From NCBI GenBank assembly GCA_965205675.1, contig OZ242186.1:736001-800000 (forward strand): 64,000 nt of DNA. Direction: 5' to 3'. This document shows positions 5,708-52,217 of this stretch, one piece after another (position 1 is the stretch's first letter; the number at the start of each line of letters is the position of its first letter). A program made the translations under genes and the position numbers. The notes under the pieces are model-generated. The model was not told the origin of the DNA and did not search any database. It saw nothing but the letters and a program-made list of their open reading frames with translations. This DNA comes from Nitrosopumilus sp. Lineage in GTDB: Archaea; Thermoproteota; Nitrososphaeria; Nitrososphaerales; Nitrosopumilaceae.

Positions 5708-6440
5708 AAGTTTACATTACAAATTTTAAACCTAGGTTTAATCATTTGCTATACTGTAAAATAATCCTAGATTTTATCATATGTGATAATTTTTACCAAA
5801 TCTCTATTTCTTGATCTTAAATCCCGTTAATATTCAGATTTCTATCGTGAATATCTATCCTTTAGAAAAATTAATTCAGATGGCTTCATATTTGTCATTT
5901 ACAGTATTGATCTATTGGGCCTTCATCATCAAATATGAGTTTTGATATTAATTTATATCTCATTTATCTATTCTGCGATATGTCTCTGTTAATTTTGTGT
6001 ACTCCTGTAGATTCTTCCTTAGTGTATGTATCAAGCTTCACACATAAATCAATACCATTACACAAAAAATCAAAGATCAGCTAAATCATTCTACAATACA
6101 TGTCAGAGTGTGGTCATGAGAAAATCATCTTACAATTACAAGAAAAAGTAAAACAACTCATGCAAAAATTATCATACTATGAAAATCCACACTCACCACC
6201 ATCAAAAAATTCACTTGAATGGAGAAAACAGAAACAAGATGCAAAGAAAAACAGAGATTCTGATTCTGGCAAATCAAAACGTGGTGGCATACCGGGTCAC
6301 AAGGGCACAACACAGAAATTCACCCCAACTAGTACCATACATCACAAATGTTTAGAATGTCCCAAATGTGGAAGTGAAGATATCCTTCAAATCAAGACTG
6401 CCAAAAGAATAATGGTTGAAATCCCTCCACCAACTCAATA

Positions 6441-7594
6441 TAGTTTAGGCATATAAATTTTGAACGAATTATCAACTATTTTAACCCAAAAGATCTAGAT
6501 CATAGTTTATACTTACAGAATCATGTCAAAACAAACTAAAGCATTAATGGTATCTTCAGGAAGCCATTTCATGAAAGGAACAAGCATTAATTTTTTAAGA
6601 AAAACATGCAAGAATGAAAAAAATGCAAAAGCGAAGATAAGATTAAAGGCTGCAATACTAAGAAAACAAGATATTCCATATTCTGTGATATGTGCCAGTT
6701 TGGATGTCATACCATCAACTCTGTCCTACTGGCTAAATCGAATGGATAAAGAGGGAATAACTGCATCACACCGTAAGGAATATTCTGGCTCTAGATGTTT
6801 CTTAAATAAAAAACAACTAGTGTCATTAAGAGATGATCTAATTTCAGGTCCAGAAAAGTTTGGATTCAATCAATTCATGTGGAGTACAAGAATGGTAATT
6901 ACACATGTGAATAAAAAATACAACACGCTATACTCTGCAAGAGGAATGCGTGAATTGCTGCACAGAATCGGATTCTCATCTAAAAAACCAAGACAGACTC
7001 ATCACAAATCAGCCTCAAAAGAGGAACAAACCCGTTTTAAAAAAACGCAAAAAGGAGTATCAAAAAATATTCCAAATTGGGATACACCACACTATGTCTG
7101 GACGAGTCAACAAATAAAGTAGCACCCAACATAAAGCGCGGATGGTATCTTGCAGGCAATAACATTACCACACCAATTAATTACACTCGAGAAAAATTTC
7201 AATCATTTGGTGCATTGGGCAATAACGGTGTATTTTTTTGCAGGTTCTATGATAAATCAAACACAGACTCATTTCTTGATTTTTTAGAATCACTGCAAAA
7301 ACAATTTGGTAAGAAATTGTTACTGTTTGCTTTTTTGTAGATAATGCATCATACCACAAAAGTGTCCGAGTAAAAGAATTTCTCAAAGCACCAAAAAATA
7401 AAGTAATAATTAGATATTTTCCTGCATACACTCCAGAACTCAATCCAATTGAGATACAGTGGAGAGAAGAGAAAAATGGTAATGCCAATACATTCTTTGC
7501 AAATGGAACTGAAATGAGAAAACACATGCAGAAGAGACTAGATAATGGAGCGGTTCGAGTTGTTAAAGTGTTCAAATATTTAATGCCTTAACTA
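6441..7594 (+). mobile_element. IS630-family element nested in IS66
   Basis: TA duplication (6439-6440 and 7595-7596); imperfect TIR TAGTT(T/A)AGGCAT; HTH ORF 6523-7122 plus DDE frame (LDES, DNASYH, YTPELNPIE); slippery TTTTAAAAAAAC at 7035-7046; extra frame disruption near 7325-7340. Confidence 0.92.
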
Positions 7595-7596
7595 TA

Positions 7597-7682
7597 CATT
7601 GCAACTGACACCTGCAACTTTTCCAGATAACAGGTCAATTTCCGGTTGAAATCCCTCCACCAACTCAATACATTGCAACTGA
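7597..7682 (+). repeat. 39-bp direct duplication flanking a 35-bp unique insert (CRISPR-like repeat-spacer-repeat scar)
   Basis: GGTTGAAATCCCTCCACCAACTCAATACATTGCAACTGA is intact at 7644-7682 and split by IS630 at 6414-6440 plus 7597-7608; unique segment 7609-7643. Confidence 0.85.
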
Positions 7683-7955
7683 GCATGTCTTGTATCAATA
7701 CAATTGTAAGAACTGCTCTGATAGTTTCAAGACAGATGGAAATCTTCCACCATGTGGATGCTTTGATGCTTCTGCAATACGTGAGGGGGTCTCATTATTC
7801 TCAAAGAGAATGCCATACGATACCATTAGAGTAACTCTTCAAGAAAGATATGGATTGAAAATTAGTTGCACTACAGTACAATCTATTCTTCGCACTGGCA
7901 GTATTATGTTAGAACCATTGTACCATGACACTATACTTCCTAACATAAGTTCGTC

Positions 7956-9031
7956 AACCATCCTCTCGTTGCATATACTTGAGAATGTCTAAATTGAATC
8001 GTCTGGTTCTGTAATATTTGGAGATGTTATTTTTCAGATTACTTAGAGATGGTTGATACTGTGACACCAACAAATTGTATTTTCCTTGCTTCCATACTTC
8101 CTCAACTGCATTGAACTGTGGTGAGCCTTTTGGAAACCAATTCAATAGAACATCATCTGCATTCTCATCAAGATATTTTTGTACTAGTTTTGATCTGTGT
8201 TGTGGTGCTCGGTCTACATAGACTAGAATCTTGCCAAACTTTCTGTGCAATTCCTTTAGATAATCCAAAAAACAGTACTGATCAAATTTTTCATATTGTC
8301 TGAATAATTGCCTGCCGTCATGAGTCAGTGCACCAAAAATGATTGTTTTTTGATGTGACCCGTTTACTAGAATAATTGGACGGGTTCCTTTCTTTACCCA
8401 CATCTTTTTTCTAAATATCGCATCAGCAGTAAAGATGGACTCATCTTGTGCAAGAACTGTAAAGCCTTTTGCTATTTTTGAGGCTATTTGTTCTTTGGAG
8501 TTTTTTTAAACCAGAGTTTTTCCTCAACACTAGCTGAATTTACAAATCTCTTTGCTGCAACCTTTGGAACAAATCCCCATTTGTGTAATAATCTGTACAC
8601 ATGAACCTCATGATATTTTACACCTGATTTTTGATAAATCAGATTCATCACTTGCTTTGCACTCCAGCCGGATTGTTTTTCTGCAATTTGTAGTTGAATG
8701 CTGACTAGTTTCTTTTTTGGTATACTAGTTGGTCTGCCAGTTCTAGGCAAGTCTTGCAGTCCTGCAATTCCATATTCTGCAAATCTATCTAACCATTTGT
8801 ATGCCCATGAACGTACACGTCCAAGATTCTTTGCAACATGTGATGCAATTTGGTTCTCAAGTAATACTCGCTTTATCAAAAATAGCCTTTCTTTTACCTT
8901 GACGTTCTTTTCATCTTTGTATGCTTGAATTAATTTTTGATTATTCATGGTTTGATGTGTAATGTTTTGATCAATATGGCATTTGGTAAAATAAATCAGA
9001 TCAACAGATCATAAAATTTTGTTAGAGAGTA
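7956..9031 (-). mobile_element. second IS630-family element nested in IS66, 3' TIR truncated
   Basis: ORFs 8484-8948 (HTH) and 7954-8403 (QDES upstream, DRAPQH, SPQFNAVE) joined by a TTTAAAAAAAC slippery site near 8500-8510; 5' end TACTCTCTAAC next to TA at 9032-9033. Confidence 0.88.
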
Positions 9032-9812
9032 TAGTAGTGAAATTGTGACTGAAAAGATCCTAGGATTAGATGAGACGACATTCCCAATTGACGGAAAGAT
9101 GGGATGGATGTTAGGTTGCAAGAAGCAAAACTGAAGCTCATTACACTTTAGAGTACAGTAGAGGTGCTAAAATATTAAAAAAGTATTGGAAAAAATTTAC
9201 AGGAATTCTAGTATCTGATGGATACGCTCCATACAGAACGGTATTTTGTGATAATGTAAAACAGAGATGCACTGCACATCTGCAGCGTGATGCAAAATAT
9301 CTTGCAAGAAAATCAAATGATAAACAGGCTAAAACCATTTATGGAAAACTCTCAAAACTATTGCATCGTGCAAGACGGTATAGCATACAAGAACATTCAG
9401 AGAAACAACGTAAAAGATATGCGTTGAATTTACTAAAACAAACAGATTCTATAATATGTCAATACATGTCAGGTGATAAAGAAATGATTCAGTTTGGTAA
9501 GAAACTAAAAACTGCAAGAAATAGTCTGTTTACATTTGTGAAATATCCCTGTATTCCATCAACTAACAATGACACTGAAAATTCTATTCAAAAGTGTATC
9601 ATGCAGAGAAATGTTCGCGGACAGATGAAAAGCAATCAGGGAATGAGGATGCTTTCTATATTTTTAACATGCTTTGAAACATGGAGGATAAGGGAGTTGA
9701 ATATGTTTTCTGAGATGGCAAAATACATCTAAAGTGCTTGATACATACTCCTTAGTTGTTATGTGTGCTGAATGACTTTCAACAGGATCTTTATAAGCAC
9801 TAATTACACAAA

Positions 9813-49034: not shown

Positions 49035-50645
49035 GTGTCATCTCAGCCACGATTAGAGATTAAAGGACAGGCACCTTTCAAACAATCTGGTGTCTATGAA
49101 GCTCAAATTGCCATTACTGATAGTAAACCTTCTGACGCTGATATTCATACAAAACAATTTCCATCTTTATGGCATGGAAACTTTCATCTTAGAGTAAAAG
49201 ATGGATTGTTCTCTGAGACACTTGGCTCTCCTGCAAATCCTCTTCCATCATCTATTACCAATCTTGATAAAATTTGGATTGTTGTTACGGATCTATTTTC
49301 TTCATCACACACTGTTTTTGATATTCCTTTATCCAAACATGCATCACAAACTGAAATAAAATCTGAAACAAAACCTGTTACTGATACCCCAAAACCCAAA
49401 CATTCTGCAAGAACAAATGTTATAGGTGCATCTGGGCTTTCTGGTGAGAAAGGTGCAACTGGTCCAATCGGTCCACAAGGTGACAAAGGTCCAATCGGCC
49501 CACCTGGTCTGCAAGGTGTACCTGGTGTTAAGGGCCCTGATGGTCATAAGGGACCTTCTGGTGAGAAAGGTGCAACTGGTGACAAAGGTTCACAAGGTGA
49601 CAAAGGAATTTCTGGAGATAGGGGATTAACTGGTGATAAAGGAATTGCTGGTGATAAAGGTGATAAAGGTGACAAAGGAACTACTGGCCCCGTCGGTGAC
49701 AAAGGAGAAAAAGGTGCTACTGGCCCCGTCGGTGACAAAGGTGCTACTGGACTAAAAGGCCCTCTTGGTGACAAAGGAGAAAAAGGTCCAACTGGTCCTG
49801 TGGGGGAAAAAGGATCTGTTGGATTGCGAGGAGTCCCTGGAGAAAAAGGCGACAAAGGCCCACAAGGTATTGTTGGAGATAAAGGATTAACTGGTACTAC
49901 TGGTCCCCCTGGAGAAAAAGGTCCTACTGGATTATCTGGTGTACAAGGAGAAAAAGGAATTCAAGGTGGTCCTGGCCCTATTGGAGAAAAAGGTCCCATT
50001 GGTCCACAAGGTGACAAAGGTCCAATCGGTCCACCTGGCCCTCATGGAGATAAAGGATTAACTGGCCCCGTCGGTTCACAAGGTGACAAAGGTCCACTTG
50101 GTGGTCCTGGCCCTATTGGAGAAAAAGGTAATAAAGGTCCTGAGGGTCCTATTGGAGAAAAAGGCCCACAAGGCCCACAAGGTCCAGCTGGTTCTAAAGG
50201 ATTAACTGGAGTTCCTGGCCCTCAAGGAGAAAAAGGTAACAAAGGTGTAACAGGCCCTATTGGGGAAAAAGGTCAAACTGGTCCAATCGGCGTCCCTGGA
50301 GAAAAAGGCCCACAAGGCCCACAAGGCTCGCAAGGTGAACGTGGTACTACTGGTCCTCCTGGAGAAAAAGGCCCACAAGGTCCACAAGGAATTCAAGGTC
50401 CACAGGGTGAACGTGGCCAAACTGGTCCAATTGGTACTATTGGTGAACAAGGTCCCGTCGGAGGACAAGGCCCTGTCGGTCCTGCTGGTCCGAGAGGTCC
50501 ACCTGGTTCACCTGGAGAAAAAGGTCCCTCTGGAGGAATGTCTTCTGAACAAAAAGCTTTGTTCAAAGATTTGTTAGAACTACTAACTAACAAAAATGTA
50601 ATCTCCACTGAAGAACAAATTAAATTAATGAGTTATCTTTACTGA
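49035..50645 (+). CDS. collagen-like (Gly-X-Y) protein
   Basis: About 370 aa of continuous GXY repeats between globular termini. Confidence 0.93.
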
Positions 50646-50751
50646 GCAATTATAATTTTTAATCTATTGTTTATTTTAAAAATTTGTATTTGAAATTTAT
50701 CCTTTGCTTGTTATGCTAATTTTATTTTTCTAAATATTGTATCTCAAATTT

Positions 50752-51762
50752 TGCTGTGTTTCCCAACATGACTAGTTGATCCAATTAATTTCATCACCCA
50801 AGCTTTAGATCAGAATATTCTGTATTATTCCATGAACAGAAACTGGAAAAATTACAACAAAACACTAGTTAGACGTGGAGAAATCATGTTGTCCTTTGAC
50901 GCAATGGAATCATGGAGTATGGAACTAAAAGAGATGAATCACAAAAAGGAAGGTCATCGATTTGTCTATCCTGAATCCTTCATGGAGGCACTAGGATACT
51001 GTCATCTCTATTTGCATCTTCCATTCAGACAAACAGAAGGTCTGATAAAATCACACCTCCAATCCAAAACAAAGACTCCCACATATTCTGCCATTTGGAA
51101 ACGTGTCAACAAACTTGACATCAAGATGAATCCAAAACTAGGAAAAGACATTGTCATTGCAATAGACTCAACTGGAATCAAGGTTGCAGACAGAGGTGAG
51201 TGGATGAGACAGAAATGGCAGAAGAGAAGAGGATTTCTTAAAATTCATGTGGCAGTAGATGTGAAATCTAAACAGATCACAGGGATTGATATTACAGATG
51301 ACAAGTCACATGATTCAAAACATTTCATATCGCTAGTTGAGCAATCAAAACAGTTTGGCAATGTCACTAAAACTTTGGCTGATGGTGCATATGATACAAA
51401 GGATAATTTTTCATATCTGTATTATGATAATGATATTCTACCTGCAATTAAAACAAGAAAAAACTCATCAGTTGTAACTGATTGTTATCCTCGGAGAAAG
51501 TCTGTTTTGGCACAATTGTATAACTTGGATCTATGGAAGCTCAGCGTAAGCTATGGGGATAGATGGATTGTAGAGGGAGTATTCTCTGTATTCAAAAGAA
51601 TATTTGGAGAGCATGTGACATCGCACAAGAGAGAAAACATGATTCATGAATTGAAAATGAAAGTTTGTCTGTACAATAAAATGATTGCAATGCAATAGAA
51701 TCAGAAATGATTTCAAAGCATCAAAGAGTGTTGATGGTTATTTGGGGTTGGGAAACAAAGCA
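50752..51762 (+). mobile_element. intact IS5-family element (IS903-like)
   Basis: TIR TGCT(G/T)TGTTTCCCAAC; 8-bp TSD TCAAATTT (50744-50751 and 51763-51770). Confidence 0.93.
50832..51698 (+). CDS. IS5-family DDE transposase
   Basis: NWKNYN...RGE, IDSTG...GEW, ADGAYD, YGDRWIVE. Confidence 0.94.
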   Translation: MNRNWKNYNKTLVRRGEIMLSFDAMESWSMELKEMNHKKEGHRFVYPESFMEALGYCHLYLHLPFRQTEGLIKSHLQSKTKTPTYSAIWKRVNKLDIKMNPKLGKDIVIAIDSTGIKVADRGEWMRQKWQKRRGFLKIHVAVDVKSKQITGIDITDDKSHDSKHFISLVEQSKQFGNVTKTLADGAYDTKDNFSYLYYDNDILPAIKTRKNSSVVTDCYPRRKSVLAQLYNLDLWKLSVSYGDRWIVEGVFSVFKRIFGEHVTSHKRENMIHELKMKVCLYNKMIAMQ

Positions 51763-51896
51763 TCAAATTTTTATATTTATTGTACACTGATATTTTGTTT
51801 ATGTTTTATAATTGATTTTATAGTTAACACTGATATAATTTAGAAAAATGAAAACAATTCGTCGTCTTTATGACGATTGTTAGTTTGTTGACGGGG

Positions 51897-52217
51897 TTAT
51901 CGTCTTTTTGCTGCTTTTCTCTTTGGAGCGGCTTTTCTTTTAGTTGCTGCCTTTCTCTTTGGAGCTGCCTTTCTCTTTGGAGCGGCTTTTCTTTTAGTTG
52001 CTGCCTTTCTCTTTGGAGCTGCCTTTCTCTTTGGAGCGGCTTTTCTTTTAGTTGCTGCCTTTCTCTTTGGAGCTGCTTTTTTAGCTGCAGTTTTTCTTTT
52101 AGTTGCTGCCTTTCTCTTTGGAGCTGCCTTTCTCTTTGGAGCGGCTTTTCTTTTAGTTGCCGCCTTTCTCTTTGGAGCTGCTTTTCTCTTTGGAGCTGCT
52201 TTTCGTTTAGCTGCCAT
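51897..52217 (-). CDS. histone H1-like basic repeat protein (KRKAAP/KRKAAT)
   Basis: 106 aa almost entirely K/R/A/P/T, encoded by imperfect 18-bp repeats. Confidence 0.88.
   Translation of the reverse strand: MAAKRKAAPKRKAAPKRKAATKRKAAPKRKAAPKRKAATKRKTAAKKAAPKRKAATKRKAAPKRKAAPKRKAATKRKAAPKRKAAPKRKAATKRKAAPKRKAAKRR

What the first reader, a model, noticed from the sequence alone, without database searches (positions are those of the whole stretch)
6414..7682. Repeat-spacer-repeat scar in the IS66 transposase: probable off-target CRISPR spacer integration
Seen: once the IS630 and one TA are removed, the sequence reads 39-bp repeat, then 35-bp unique insert (CACCTGCAACTTTTCCAGATAACAGGTCAATTTCC), then the identical repeat; the period is 74 bp. 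The duplicated stretch is native IS66 coding sequence (VEIPPPTQYIAT). It contains GTTGAAAT...ATTGCAAC, which resembles archaeal CRISPR repeat ends. The insert is open on the minus strand (EIDLLSGKVAG), as if captured from another gene. Established: Cas1-Cas2 duplicates a repeat-length target around a spacer of similar size and can integrate at repeat-like off-target sites. Inference: an ectopic acquisition (for example 37+37 bp) frameshifted the transposase, and IS630 later hit the first repeat. It would be a snapshot of de novo array birth inside a mobile element. No cas genes lie in this window.
Basis: partly seen in the sequence, partly recalled or inferred. Interest (0 to 1): 0.8.

Follow-up and report, generated by a model that had tools for sequence, protein, structure and literature searches.

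The report
Stray CRISPR spacer insertions across genome
The 74-base scar in this jumping-gene copy is most likely a CRISPR "memory" fragment pasted in the wrong place, and it is one of about fifteen such misplaced insertions in this ammonia-oxidising archaeon, so the immune system's integrase also acts as a mutagen of its own genome.

Summary
A 39-bp stretch of an IS66-like transposase gene occurs twice around a unique 35-bp insert, and an IS630 later split the first copy. Three sister IS66 copies carry the 39-mer once, with no insert.

The genome has one intact type I-B cas4-cas1-cas2 module about 36 kb upstream of the window. Its array has 30-bp repeats and 34-37-bp spacers.

A genome-wide scan found about 14 more repeat-insert-repeat scars:
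- Four have exactly 30-bp duplications that resemble the real repeat (z=5.8).
- Ten, including this one, have 36-39-bp duplications.
- Inserts are 32-40 bp, and two are copies of the genome's own DNA.

One sister scar is an empty site in 5 of 5 relatives aligned. A second Cas1-bearing species has 4 such scars in 0.77 Mb. Two Cas1-less relatives have 0 and at most 1 in 0.8 Mb each.

Ectopic Cas1-Cas2 spacer integration is therefore well supported (about 0.8). Why this class duplicates about 37 bp and not 30 is open. Either the I-B integrase has a looser second mode, or a lost module with 36-nt repeats, common in the genus, made them.

The scan has noted similar scars on other DNA before, some without CRISPR.

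The parts
6024..6440 (+). Left part of the IS66-like element copy. The transposase ORF starts at 6100. It runs up to the IS630 insertion point.
   Evidence: BLAST of a sister copy: element positions 81-499 match window 6024-6440 at 98.6%. Alignment of 4 copies. A paralogous IS66 gene gave Pfam DDE_Tnp_IS66 and zf-IS66; this copy itself was not scanned.
6414..6440 (.). First copy of the duplicated 39-bp target, first 27 nt.
   Evidence: 100% identical to 7644-7670.
6441..7596 (+). IS630-family element (1154 bp) plus its duplicated TA. It inserted into the first repeat copy after the duplication arose.
   Evidence: Full-length matches at 98-99% to 10 other copies in the genome, among 24 other matches. 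TA at 6439-6440 and 7595-7596.
7597..7608 (.). First copy of the duplicated target, last 12 nt.
   Evidence: Joined to 6414-6440 it equals 7644-7682 exactly.
7609..7643 (.). 35-bp spacer-like insert of unknown source. It is 36 bp if the following G belongs to it.
   Evidence: Unique in the genome. 0 exact hits in viral, genome and metagenome contig collections. 0 of 400 family genomes at up to 3 mismatches. Its length lies inside the resident spacer range of 34-37.
7644..7682 (.). Second copy of the 39-bp target, continuous with the rest of the IS66 gene.
   Evidence: Half-sites resembling the repeat terminus (GATTSAAAY) lie near both ends. On the bottom strand GATTTCAAC lies 1 nt inside the end. 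On the top strand CATTGCAAC lies 3 nt inside. Each matches 7 of 9. P=0.002 for a random 39-mer.
7683..7933 (+). IS66-like element, middle part.
   Evidence: Element positions 473-762 match window 7644-7933 at 97.6%.
7934..9031 (-). Second inserted element that interrupts the IS66 copy. It looks IS630-like from its ORF translations; it was not scanned against a family library.
   Evidence: Gap between the IS66 matches ending at 7933 and resuming at 9032. Minus-strand ORFs at 7954-8403 and 8484-8948.
9032..9748 (+). IS66-like element, right part.
   Evidence: Element positions 761-1478 match window 9032-9748 at 96.4%.

Best explanation
The 74 extra bases are the footprint of an ectopic (off-target) spacer integration by a CRISPR Cas1-Cas2 integrase.

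Inferred steps:
1. A spacer-sized fragment of 35-36 bp from DNA not present in any collection searched was held by the integrase.
2. Its two 3' ends attacked opposite strands of the IS66 transposase gene 38-39 bp apart. The site is a pseudo-repeat whose two ends carry inverted copies of the half-site that terminates both strands of the real repeat.
3. Gap repair then copied the 39 bp on both sides of the insert.

Shown by the sequence:
- The addition shifts the transposase frame (74 is not a multiple of 3).
- An IS630 later landed in the first repeat copy.

The event is one of about 15 in this genome. The enzyme is most likely the genome's own type I-B module, the only cas1 present, which demonstrably makes off-target integrations with its canonical 30-bp duplication at repeat-like sites.

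I infer that at sites lacking the internal repeat anchor, the second cut falls about 36-39 bp from the first. Within the 0.8 given here, I put about 55-60% on the resident I-B enzyme and about 40% on a lost second module (rival 1).
For: Insertion polarity: 3 of 3 sister IS66 copies that reach the site lack the 74 bp.

Machinery:
- One cas1 (type I-B Cas1b model, E=3.7e-131), one cas2 and one cas4, all with open frames, plus cas3, cas5 and cas7.
- An array of 12 repeats of 30 bp with 11 spacers of 34-37 bp.

Insert length: 35 bp, inside that spacer range.

Recurrence:
- After filtering, 13 clean two-copy A-B-A structures remain in the genome. Twelve of them have a period of 64-73 and inserts of 32-40.
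- The window scar, e1480044 and e30670 are extra to these.
- Four scars have exactly 30-bp duplications that match the resident repeat in register. The summed match is 69 against a null of 50.9 +- 3.1, z=5.8.

Inserts are captured DNA:
- e1774762 is a 100% copy (32 nt, 34 with the next two bases) of a sequence present 5 times elsewhere in the genome.
- e1480044 matches another locus at 33 of 35.

Empty site: for e1505435 in 5 of 5 relatives aligned. The split BLAST pattern expected of an empty site appears in 33 of 36 matching genus genomes.

Target preference: the repeat-terminal half-site is enriched at both ends of the 36-39-bp class. The sum is 149 against 134.2 +- 5.3, P=0.0055.

Comparison between genomes:
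- Cas1-positive G269: 4 of 4 clean structures are in the class, in 767 kb.
- Cas1-less G038: 0 in 800 kb (Poisson P=0.008 at this genome's rate).
- Cas1-less G254: at most 1 of 6 clean structures, in 800 kb.

Precedent: in the related Haloarcula hispanica I-B system, the leader-distal cut is sequence-independent and set by a movable internal anchor, giving 29-33-bp duplications when the anchor is shifted (PMC4872114, abstract and section 14).
Against: - The duplication is 39 bp (38 if one base is a chance match), not the resident 30 bp. Published off-target integrations keep the repeat length: Pyrococcus furiosus in vitro gives 30-31 bp (PMC6698737, passages).
- In H. hispanica, inserting 4 or more nt between the repeat motifs abolished adaptation.
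- The 36-39-bp class shows no whole-length likeness to the resident repeat or to five other repeat types of the family (z from -0.2 to 0.9).
- No source and no PAM could be found for this insert.
- The two self-derived inserts show no common flanking motif.
- The contrast between genomes with and without Cas1 rests on only 2 plus 2 genomes, partly sampled. One control (G254) differs in base composition (52% GC).
- Earlier notes of this scan report units of about 37+35 bp in lineages where no CRISPR machinery was found.
Confidence: 0.8

Rival explanations
1. Same chemistry, different enzyme. The 36-39-bp class, this scar included, was made by a second CRISPR adaptation module with 36-37-nt repeats. 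The lineage carried it, perhaps on a mobile element, and has since lost it. This probability lies inside the 0.8 of the best explanation; it concerns only which integrase acted.
For: - Same-genus genomes carry arrays with 36-nt repeats that end in GATTGAAAC and have a period mode of 71 (G013, G239, G283). Others have ATTTCCG...CATTGAAGC repeats with a period of 72-75 (G287, G299).
- The scars of this class have periods of 70-75, mean 72.4.
- G269, which also has such scars, holds a truncated second cas1 (205 aa, 49% identical to the Cas1 beside 37-nt repeats) and a 29-nt piece of a 36-nt repeat at the end of its array.
- G013 has a 35+34 scar about 620 bp beyond the last repeat of its 36-nt array.
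- Published off-target events keep the repeat length.
Against: - This genome has one cas1, one cas2, one true cas4 and no relic of any 36/37-nt repeat. Four repeat types gave 0 hits at up to 10 mismatches. The AT-rich type gave 3 hits at exactly 10 mismatches, which I judge to be chance.
- 8 of the 10 scars of this class have perfectly identical copies, so the enzyme was active very recently.
- A fixed 36-bp duplication plus chance extension is rejected: 1 of 10 is at 36, P=0.008.
- The sites do not resemble any 36/37-nt repeat over their length, whereas the 30-bp class does resemble the 30-bp repeat.
- Old and young scars exist in both classes, so both processes ran in parallel for a long time.
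Confidence: 0.3
2. A process unrelated to CRISPR adds about 72 nt: a short piece of DNA plus a compensating target duplication of about 37 bp. Its enzyme is unknown. An earlier agent of this scan proposed this for another lineage.
For: - Earlier scan notes: e1-5079327 (units of about 72 nt 'that do not behave like CRISPR integration'), e1-3206587 (35-nt insert with 37-bp duplication) and e1-5038770 (34+38, no CRISPR machinery found). None of these was checked here.
- The period of the class is tighter (70-75) than either component.
- There is no whole-length likeness to a repeat.
Against: - The inserts here are all different from one another.
- They are not hairpins. The mean folding z is -0.17 and none is below -1.6, the same as real spacers.
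- The same genome holds scars with exactly the resident 30-bp repeat length and repeat-like sequence.
- The terminal half-site of the CRISPR repeat is enriched at the ends of the 36-39 class.
- There are no such scars in 800 kb of a Cas1-less relative of the same base composition.
Confidence: 0.1
3. Break repair produced a duplication with filler DNA, by template switching or end joining. No integrase was involved.
For: Two inserts are copies of DNA from elsewhere in the same genome, as templated filler can be.
Against: - Repair products vary widely in size. Here 12 of 13 clean structures fall in a 10-bp band of period, and insert lengths match spacer lengths.
- Thirteen of 15 inserts, including this one, have no template in the genome.
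- Duplications of 30 bp in register with the CRISPR repeat are not expected from repair.
Confidence: 0.04
4. Assembly artefact.
For: The region is dense in repeats (IS66, IS630).
Against: - The insert is unique sequence.
- A contig of public run X2 spans the IS630 end, insert, repeat and IS66 with no gaps.
- Fourteen similar structures lie in unique DNA.
Confidence: 0.01

Closest known systems
Non-canonical (off-target) spacer integration giving 'neo-CRISPR' loci in E. coli over-expressing Cas1-Cas2 (Nivala, Shipman and Church 2018, Nat Microbiol). The paper is not held. I know it only through passages in citing papers and from recall.
   Same: A spacer-sized insert flanked by a duplication of non-CRISPR target DNA. 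It depends on the adaptation module and is scattered over the chromosome.
   Different: - This is a wild archaeal genome, with no over-expression.
- About 15 fixed events are visible, two with self-derived inserts.
- Most duplications are 6-9 bp longer than the resident repeat.
- According to a citing preprint (10.1101/148544), natural evidence so far was 'circumstantial' in two other species.
In vitro off-target integration by Pyrococcus furiosus Cas1-Cas2 (PMC6698737; passages read).
   Same: An archaeal system with a 30-bp repeat. Non-CRISPR sites that share repeat features are used, and a preferred G lies at the border.
   Different: There the paired cuts stay 30-31 bp apart. Here only 4 of about 15 scars do.
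Motif-anchored ruler of the Haloarcula hispanica type I-B system (PMC4872114; abstract and section 14 read).
   Same: The same Cas1 subtype model (TIGR03641). The repeat is 30 bp with the same layout (GTTT...GAAC...GG.TTGAA). The leader-distal cut is sequence-independent, and its distance can change.
   Different: Reported aberrant sizes were 29-33 bp, and larger shifts abolished adaptation. Sizes of 36-39 bp have not been reported there.
Casposon integration by Cas1-like casposases of Nitrosopumilus (PMC8464041; search listing only).
   Same: An integrase of the Cas1 family in the same group of archaea, which leaves target duplications.
   Different: This genome has a single cas1, and it sits in a cas4-cas1-cas2 operon beside an array. 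The inserts are 35 bp of unrelated sequences, not a transposon with fixed ends.

Membership tests
Ectopic Cas1-Cas2 spacer integration (neo-CRISPR unit) | A single insert flanked by a direct duplication of the target, absent from the unoccupied site. | tested here: met
   3 of 3 sister IS66 copies have one 39-mer and no insert. The same holds for sister scar e1505435 in 5 of 5 relatives.
Ectopic Cas1-Cas2 spacer integration (neo-CRISPR unit) | Insert length within the spacer length range of the resident system. | tested here: met
   The insert is 35 bp; the 11 resident spacers are 34-37 bp.
Ectopic Cas1-Cas2 spacer integration (neo-CRISPR unit) | Duplication length equal to the resident repeat length. 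| tested here: not met
   39 bp (38 at least) against 30 bp. The feature is met by 4 other scars of the same genome. 36-nt repeats exist in other species of the genus.
Ectopic Cas1-Cas2 spacer integration (neo-CRISPR unit) | An intact adaptation module (cas1, cas2) in the genome. | tested here: met
   The cas4-cas1-cas2 operon lies at C1:699158-700895, with open frames, about 36 kb before the window start.
Ectopic Cas1-Cas2 spacer integration (neo-CRISPR unit) | The target shares sequence features with the repeat. | tested here: inconclusive
   Terminal half-sites match 7 of 9 at both ends (P=0.002). Over the whole length the match is 14 of 30 to the resident repeat, within the null range.
Ectopic Cas1-Cas2 spacer integration (neo-CRISPR unit) | The insert is traceable to a protospacer with the system's PAM. 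| tested here: inconclusive
   No source was found for this insert. Sources were found in the genome for 2 sister inserts. The PAM is unknown: a search of 6.3 kb of the G269 array against phage records gave no match.
Ectopic Cas1-Cas2 spacer integration (neo-CRISPR unit) | Formation depends on Cas1-Cas2. | not testable with these tools
   Comparative proxy only. Scars occur in 2 of 2 Cas1-positive genomes scanned, with 0 and at most 1 in 2 Cas1-less genomes, each partly sampled.
Bona fide CRISPR array | Three or more repeats with a leader, and the repeat shared with other arrays. | tested here: not met
   There are two copies only. The repeat is IS66 coding sequence, also present singly in 3 other copies.
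Transposable element or MITE with target-site duplication | An insert with defined ends (terminal inverted repeats or a hairpin) that recurs in the genome. | tested here: not met
   The insert is unique in the genome and in 400 family genomes. Folding is not significant (z=-1.57). The 18 inserts share no sequence.

The most novel reading that the evidence does not exclude
A type I-B CRISPR integrase with 30-bp repeats has a second, anchor-free integration mode. That mode cuts about 37 bp apart at sites marked only by the repeat's terminal half-sites.

In ammonia-oxidising archaea this mode would be a steady source of roughly 72-nt insertions. These break genes and mobile elements, add about 24 residues in frame to proteins, split a tRNA gene in an intron-like way, and seed single-unit proto-arrays.
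Probability: 0.4. Interest if true: 0.8.

Novelty: new variant of a known kind. Interest (0 to 1): 0.65.

Why it matters
Off-target spacer integration is known mainly from engineered E. coli and from test-tube reactions. Its weight in natural genome evolution is an open question.

This one complete genome of an abundant marine nitrifier shows about fifteen fixed events of different ages:
- some use the cell's own DNA as the insert;
- some disrupt mobile elements and a tRNA gene;
- two are kept in frame inside open reading frames;
- a second species shows the same scars.

This gives three things:
- a natural estimate of the autoimmune and mutational cost of keeping an adaptation module;
- material for how new arrays could start;
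- a concrete, testable puzzle about how the integrase measures its target (30 versus about 37 bp).

It also warns annotators that 65-75-nt insertions flanked by long direct repeats in genomes bearing cas1 need no unknown mobile element to explain them.

Tried and rejected
**Source of the insert**
- Exact 35-mer: 0 hits in viral contigs, genome contigs and metagenome contigs.
- Up to 3 mismatches: 0 of 400 family genomes.
- Within the genome only 14-nt chance matches.

**PAM**
- No spacer of the arrays in hand matched anything outside arrays. I used 225 spacers from the G000 and G269 arrays and from six other loci. The targets were the genome, the sampled relatives and the fetched loci.
- 6.3 kb of the G269 array against 50,697 phage records gave no match.
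- The PAM therefore stays unknown. The flanks of the two self-derived protospacers (ATA and TTT upstream) could not be judged.

**Expression**
- No RNA holder was listed for the stretch.

**Sequence likeness and orientation cues**
- Whole-length likeness of the 36-39-bp sites to six repeat types of the family: none.
- Orientation cues conflict. A G just 3' of the duplication occurs in 10 of 14 sites (orientation-free P=0.002). When orientation is set by the best 3' half-site, the matching C at -1 is seen in only 2 of 14.
- A mid-repeat anchor (TAGG/TTGG) at a fixed distance from the distal cut was looked for by eye only. None was consistent.

**Rival readings of the insert**
- Hairpin or mobile-element reading: no folding signal.
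- The insert as a diverged copy of the IS66 segment upstream (in-frame reading HLQLFQITGQFP): by eye, 12 of 35 nt are identical, which is chance level.
- Rfam scan of four scar loci: only tRNAs.

**Material I could not get**
- A 400-kb sample of G013, which has only a 36-nt-repeat system, would bear on rival 1.
- Nivala et al. 2018 is not held.
- Supplementary files of PMC4872114, which list duplicated sequences, were not seen.
Full report
**1. The observation**

The window lies at C1:736001-800000 of a complete 2,011,361-bp genome with 33.7% G+C. Earlier notes of this scan call it a marine ammonia-oxidising archaeon.

At window 6414-6440 plus 7597-7608, and again at 7644-7682, stands the same 39-mer. 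Between the copies lie 35 unique bases (7609-7643). An IS630-family element with a duplicated TA (6441-7596) splits the first copy. The repeat cannot be extended on either side.

The host is a roughly 1.4-kb IS66-like element at window 6024-9748. A second inserted element also interrupts it at 7934-9031.

Three other copies of the element reach the site (C1:987689, 1618110, 1857851). Each has the 39-mer once, with no insert. So the 74 bp are an addition to this copy, made before the IS630 arrived.

A contig of public run X2 spans the IS630 end, the insert and both junctions. X2 may be the source sample. A contig in X1 that skips 6413 to 7644 is what the sister copies predict, and it says nothing on polymorphism.

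**2. The resident CRISPR system**

The genome holds one cas1. It lies in a cas4-cas1-cas2 operon at C1:699158-700895. An IS630 follows, then cas3, cas5 and cas7 on the other strand. The best models are type I-B (Cas1b E=3.7e-131). There is one cas2 and one true cas4.

Beside the operon lies an array of 12 repeats of 30 bp, which reads GTTTGAATCG...GGATTGAAAT away from the leader. Its 11 spacers are 34-37 bp and its period is 64-67. A worn two-repeat mini-array stands at C1:9808.

The leader end (...GGCGG|GTTTG) is the same in relative G269, which settles the orientation.

So the 35-bp insert fits the spacers, but the 39-bp duplication does not fit the repeat.

**3. The scar is not alone**

I scanned the whole genome for exact direct repeats 40-130 bp apart and applied a clean filter. 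The filter kept exact repeats of 25 bp or more, with no third copy nearby and an insert unrelated to its surroundings.

Thirteen structures remain. Twelve have a period of 64-73 and inserts of 32-40. The thirteenth is a plain tandem duplication.

Adding the window scar (hidden from the scan by the IS630) and two older or shorter ones gives about 15.

| Class | Scars (genome coordinate, duplication + insert) |
|---|---|
| I, exactly 30 bp | 199961 (30+37), 439378 (30+35), 1478538 (30+35), 98273 (30+34, copies slightly diverged) |
| II, 36-39 bp | 541166 (37+35), 732792 (37+35, 1 mismatch), window (39+35), 1474824 (38+35), 1479353 (37+36), 1480044 (38+37, 3 mismatches), 1505435 (36+35), 1599699 (38+34), 1704607 (39+33), 1774762 (38+32) |
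| Unclassed | 30670 (23+39, or 27+35 with 2 mismatches) |

**4. Evidence that these are captured fragments put in by an integrase**

- *Self-derived inserts.* Two inserts are copies of the genome's own DNA.
  - The insert of e1774762 is identical to a sequence present five times in a tandem gene repeat at C1:1337331 onward.
  - That match runs two bases into the 'repeat', which suggests a true split of 36+34.
  - The insert of e1480044 matches C1:1021736 at 33 of 35.
  - The other inserts, the window's among them, match nothing in the genome and not each other.
- *Empty site.* For e1505435, at the 3' end of a UbiA-family gene, five of five relatives aligned have a single copy of the 36-mer and no insert. 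33 of 36 matching genomes of the genus gave the split match expected of an empty site.
- *Class I sites resemble the repeat.* Class I sites match the resident repeat in register. The summed match is 69 of 120 against a null of 50.9 +- 3.1, z=5.8. All four begin with G and end in TTGNAAT or AAAATT.
- *Half-sites in class II.* The real repeat ends on both strands in GATTSAAAY. This half-site is enriched near both ends of the class II sites of G000 and G269.
  - The sum is 149 against 134.2 +- 5.3, P=0.0055.
  - The window site has 7 of 9 at each end, 1 and 3 nt inside the cuts.
- For a random 39-mer that has P=0.002.
- *Not hairpins.* The inserts do not fold. The mean z is -0.17 over 18 inserts, against 0.23 for the 11 real spacers.
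- *Where they survive.* Surviving scars sit where selection allows:
  - two IS66 transposase genes;
  - an accessory tRNA-Phe gene (a second, intact one exists);
  - the last codons or the 3' flank of genes (UbiA family, hemA);
  - upstream of PCNA;
  - a ParB/Fic/IS-rich island;
  - in frame (72 or 75 nt) inside two open ORFs.

**5. Other genomes**

Cas1 is found in 103 of 301 family genomes searched. Relatives with the same Cas1 type share the 30-nt repeat almost letter for letter. One of the eight loci there, L008, is from a genome flagged unpublished; the statement holds without it.

| Genome | Cas1 | Sampled | Clean structures |
|---|---|---|---|
| G269 (same genus; array of 160 repeats of 30 nt, spacers mostly 35-38) | yes | 767,386 bp | 4, all in the class: 34+39, 37+46, 37+38, 36+36 |
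| G038 (34% G+C) | no | 800,000 bp | 0. 4.8 expected at this genome's rate, P=0.008 |
| G254 (52% G+C) | no | 800,000 bp | 6, with scattered periods of 42-99; only one (30+42) is near the class |

This is a small comparison of partly sampled genomes, and related genomes are not independent.

**6. The 30 versus about 37 problem**

Published work leads one to expect the repeat length. P. furiosus Cas1-Cas2 pairs its off-target cuts 30-31 bp apart (PMC6698737, passages).

In H. hispanica, which has the same Cas1 subtype, duplication starts at the leader-repeat junction. It ends at a fixed distance from a mid-repeat motif that can be recognised loosely. Moving the motif gave 29-33 bp, and larger insertions stopped adaptation (PMC4872114, abstract and section 14).

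There are two readings:

- *H1.* The resident I-B integrase, at sites that lack the internal anchor, places the second cut about 36-39 bp away.
- *H2.* A second module made class II.

For H2:
- The genus holds arrays with 36-nt repeats that also end in GATTGAAAC (G013, G239, G283; period mode 71). It also holds arrays with 36-nt ATTTCCG...CATTGAAGC repeats (G287, G299; period 72-75). One of the loci, L032, is from an unpublished genome and is not needed for this.
- G269 keeps a truncated second cas1 and a 29-nt piece of a 36-nt repeat.

Against H2:
- This genome has no second cas1, cas2 or cas4, and no relic of such repeats.
- Eight of the ten class II scars have identical copies, so they are recent.
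- A fixed 36-bp duplication is rejected (P=0.008).
- Class II sites resemble none of the six repeat types over their length.

I put H1 somewhat ahead of H2. A survey of complete genomes would decide between them.

**7. Other rivals**

An earlier agent of this scan described units of about 72 nt in another lineage as not CRISPR-like. Other notes report 37+35 or 38+34 units, one where no CRISPR machinery was found. I did not check those.

Here, class I, the half-site signal, the unfolded and unrelated inserts, and the Cas1-less control all speak against a separate process. It is not excluded (about 0.1). Repair with filler DNA and an assembly error are unlikely, for the reasons given under the rivals.

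**8. Unexplained**

- A G stands just 3' of the duplication (or a C just 5', read on the other strand) in 10 of 14 class II sites. This cue conflicts with the orientation given by the best half-site.
- Four scars lie within 5.4 kb, at C1:1474824-1480156, where 0.04 are expected.

**9. Literature**

Searches of the held library found no report of a natural archaeal genome carrying many ectopic spacer integrations. The library lacks most subscription journals, and the key paper itself was not readable.

**10. Verdict**

- The mechanism is a known one. Its scale in a wild genome, and the duplication length that does not fit the resident repeat, appear not to have been described.

Noticed in passing
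outside the window: genome C1:541136-541279 (locus L039 2636-2779), minus strand: An accessory, AT-richer tRNA-Phe(GAA) gene is split by a 37+35 scar. With introns allowed, ARAGORN reads it as a tRNA with a 72-nt 'intron' at position 34. A GC-rich tRNA-Phe at C1:1563605-1563679 is intact. Whether such an insertion could be spliced was not tested.
   Followed up: partly
outside the window: genome C1:1474824-1480156 (locus L004): Four scars (three of class II, one of class I) lie within 5.4 kb. The island holds ParB, Fic/DOC, IS66, IS630-like genes and ORFans. About 0.04 events are expected by chance. It could be a hot spot, or simply a place where scars are tolerated.
   Followed up: partly
outside the window: genome C1:1599699-1599808 and C1:1480044-1480156: Two scars of 72 and 75 nt leave their host ORFs open. 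They add 24 and 25 residues to proteins with no Pfam match.
   Followed up: partly
window 6024-9748, and genome C1:1616-1618.6 kb and 1855-1858.4 kb: The IS66-like element is only about 1.4 kb; two copies are 99.1% identical over 1403 bp. The longest frame in the copy examined is 223 aa, and that copy and the window copy carry frame breaks. It may be a non-autonomous derivative.
   Followed up: partly
locus L069 (G269:C1:2066156), the far end of that genome's array: The penultimate 'spacer' of a 160-repeat I-B array is 29 nt of the 36-nt repeat of another CRISPR type found in other genera of the family. The same array contains duplicated blocks of spacers.
   Followed up: partly
window about 49,400-52,200 (genome 785.4-788.2 kb): Dense coding tandem repeats. 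Some read as GGT/CCA-rich collagen-like triplets with periods of 63, 72 and 117. Others have a Lys/Ala-rich look. Not examined further.
   Followed up: no
outside the window: genome C1:701265-702263 (locus L002 13265-14263), minus strand: An IS630-family transposase gene sits between cas2 and cas3 of the type I-B locus.
   Followed up: no
locus L175 17657 (G013, which has only a 36-nt-repeat system): A 35+34 repeat-insert-repeat unit of non-repeat sequence lies about 620 bp beyond the last repeat of that genome's array. It may be an ectopic unit made by the other CRISPR type.
   Followed up: no
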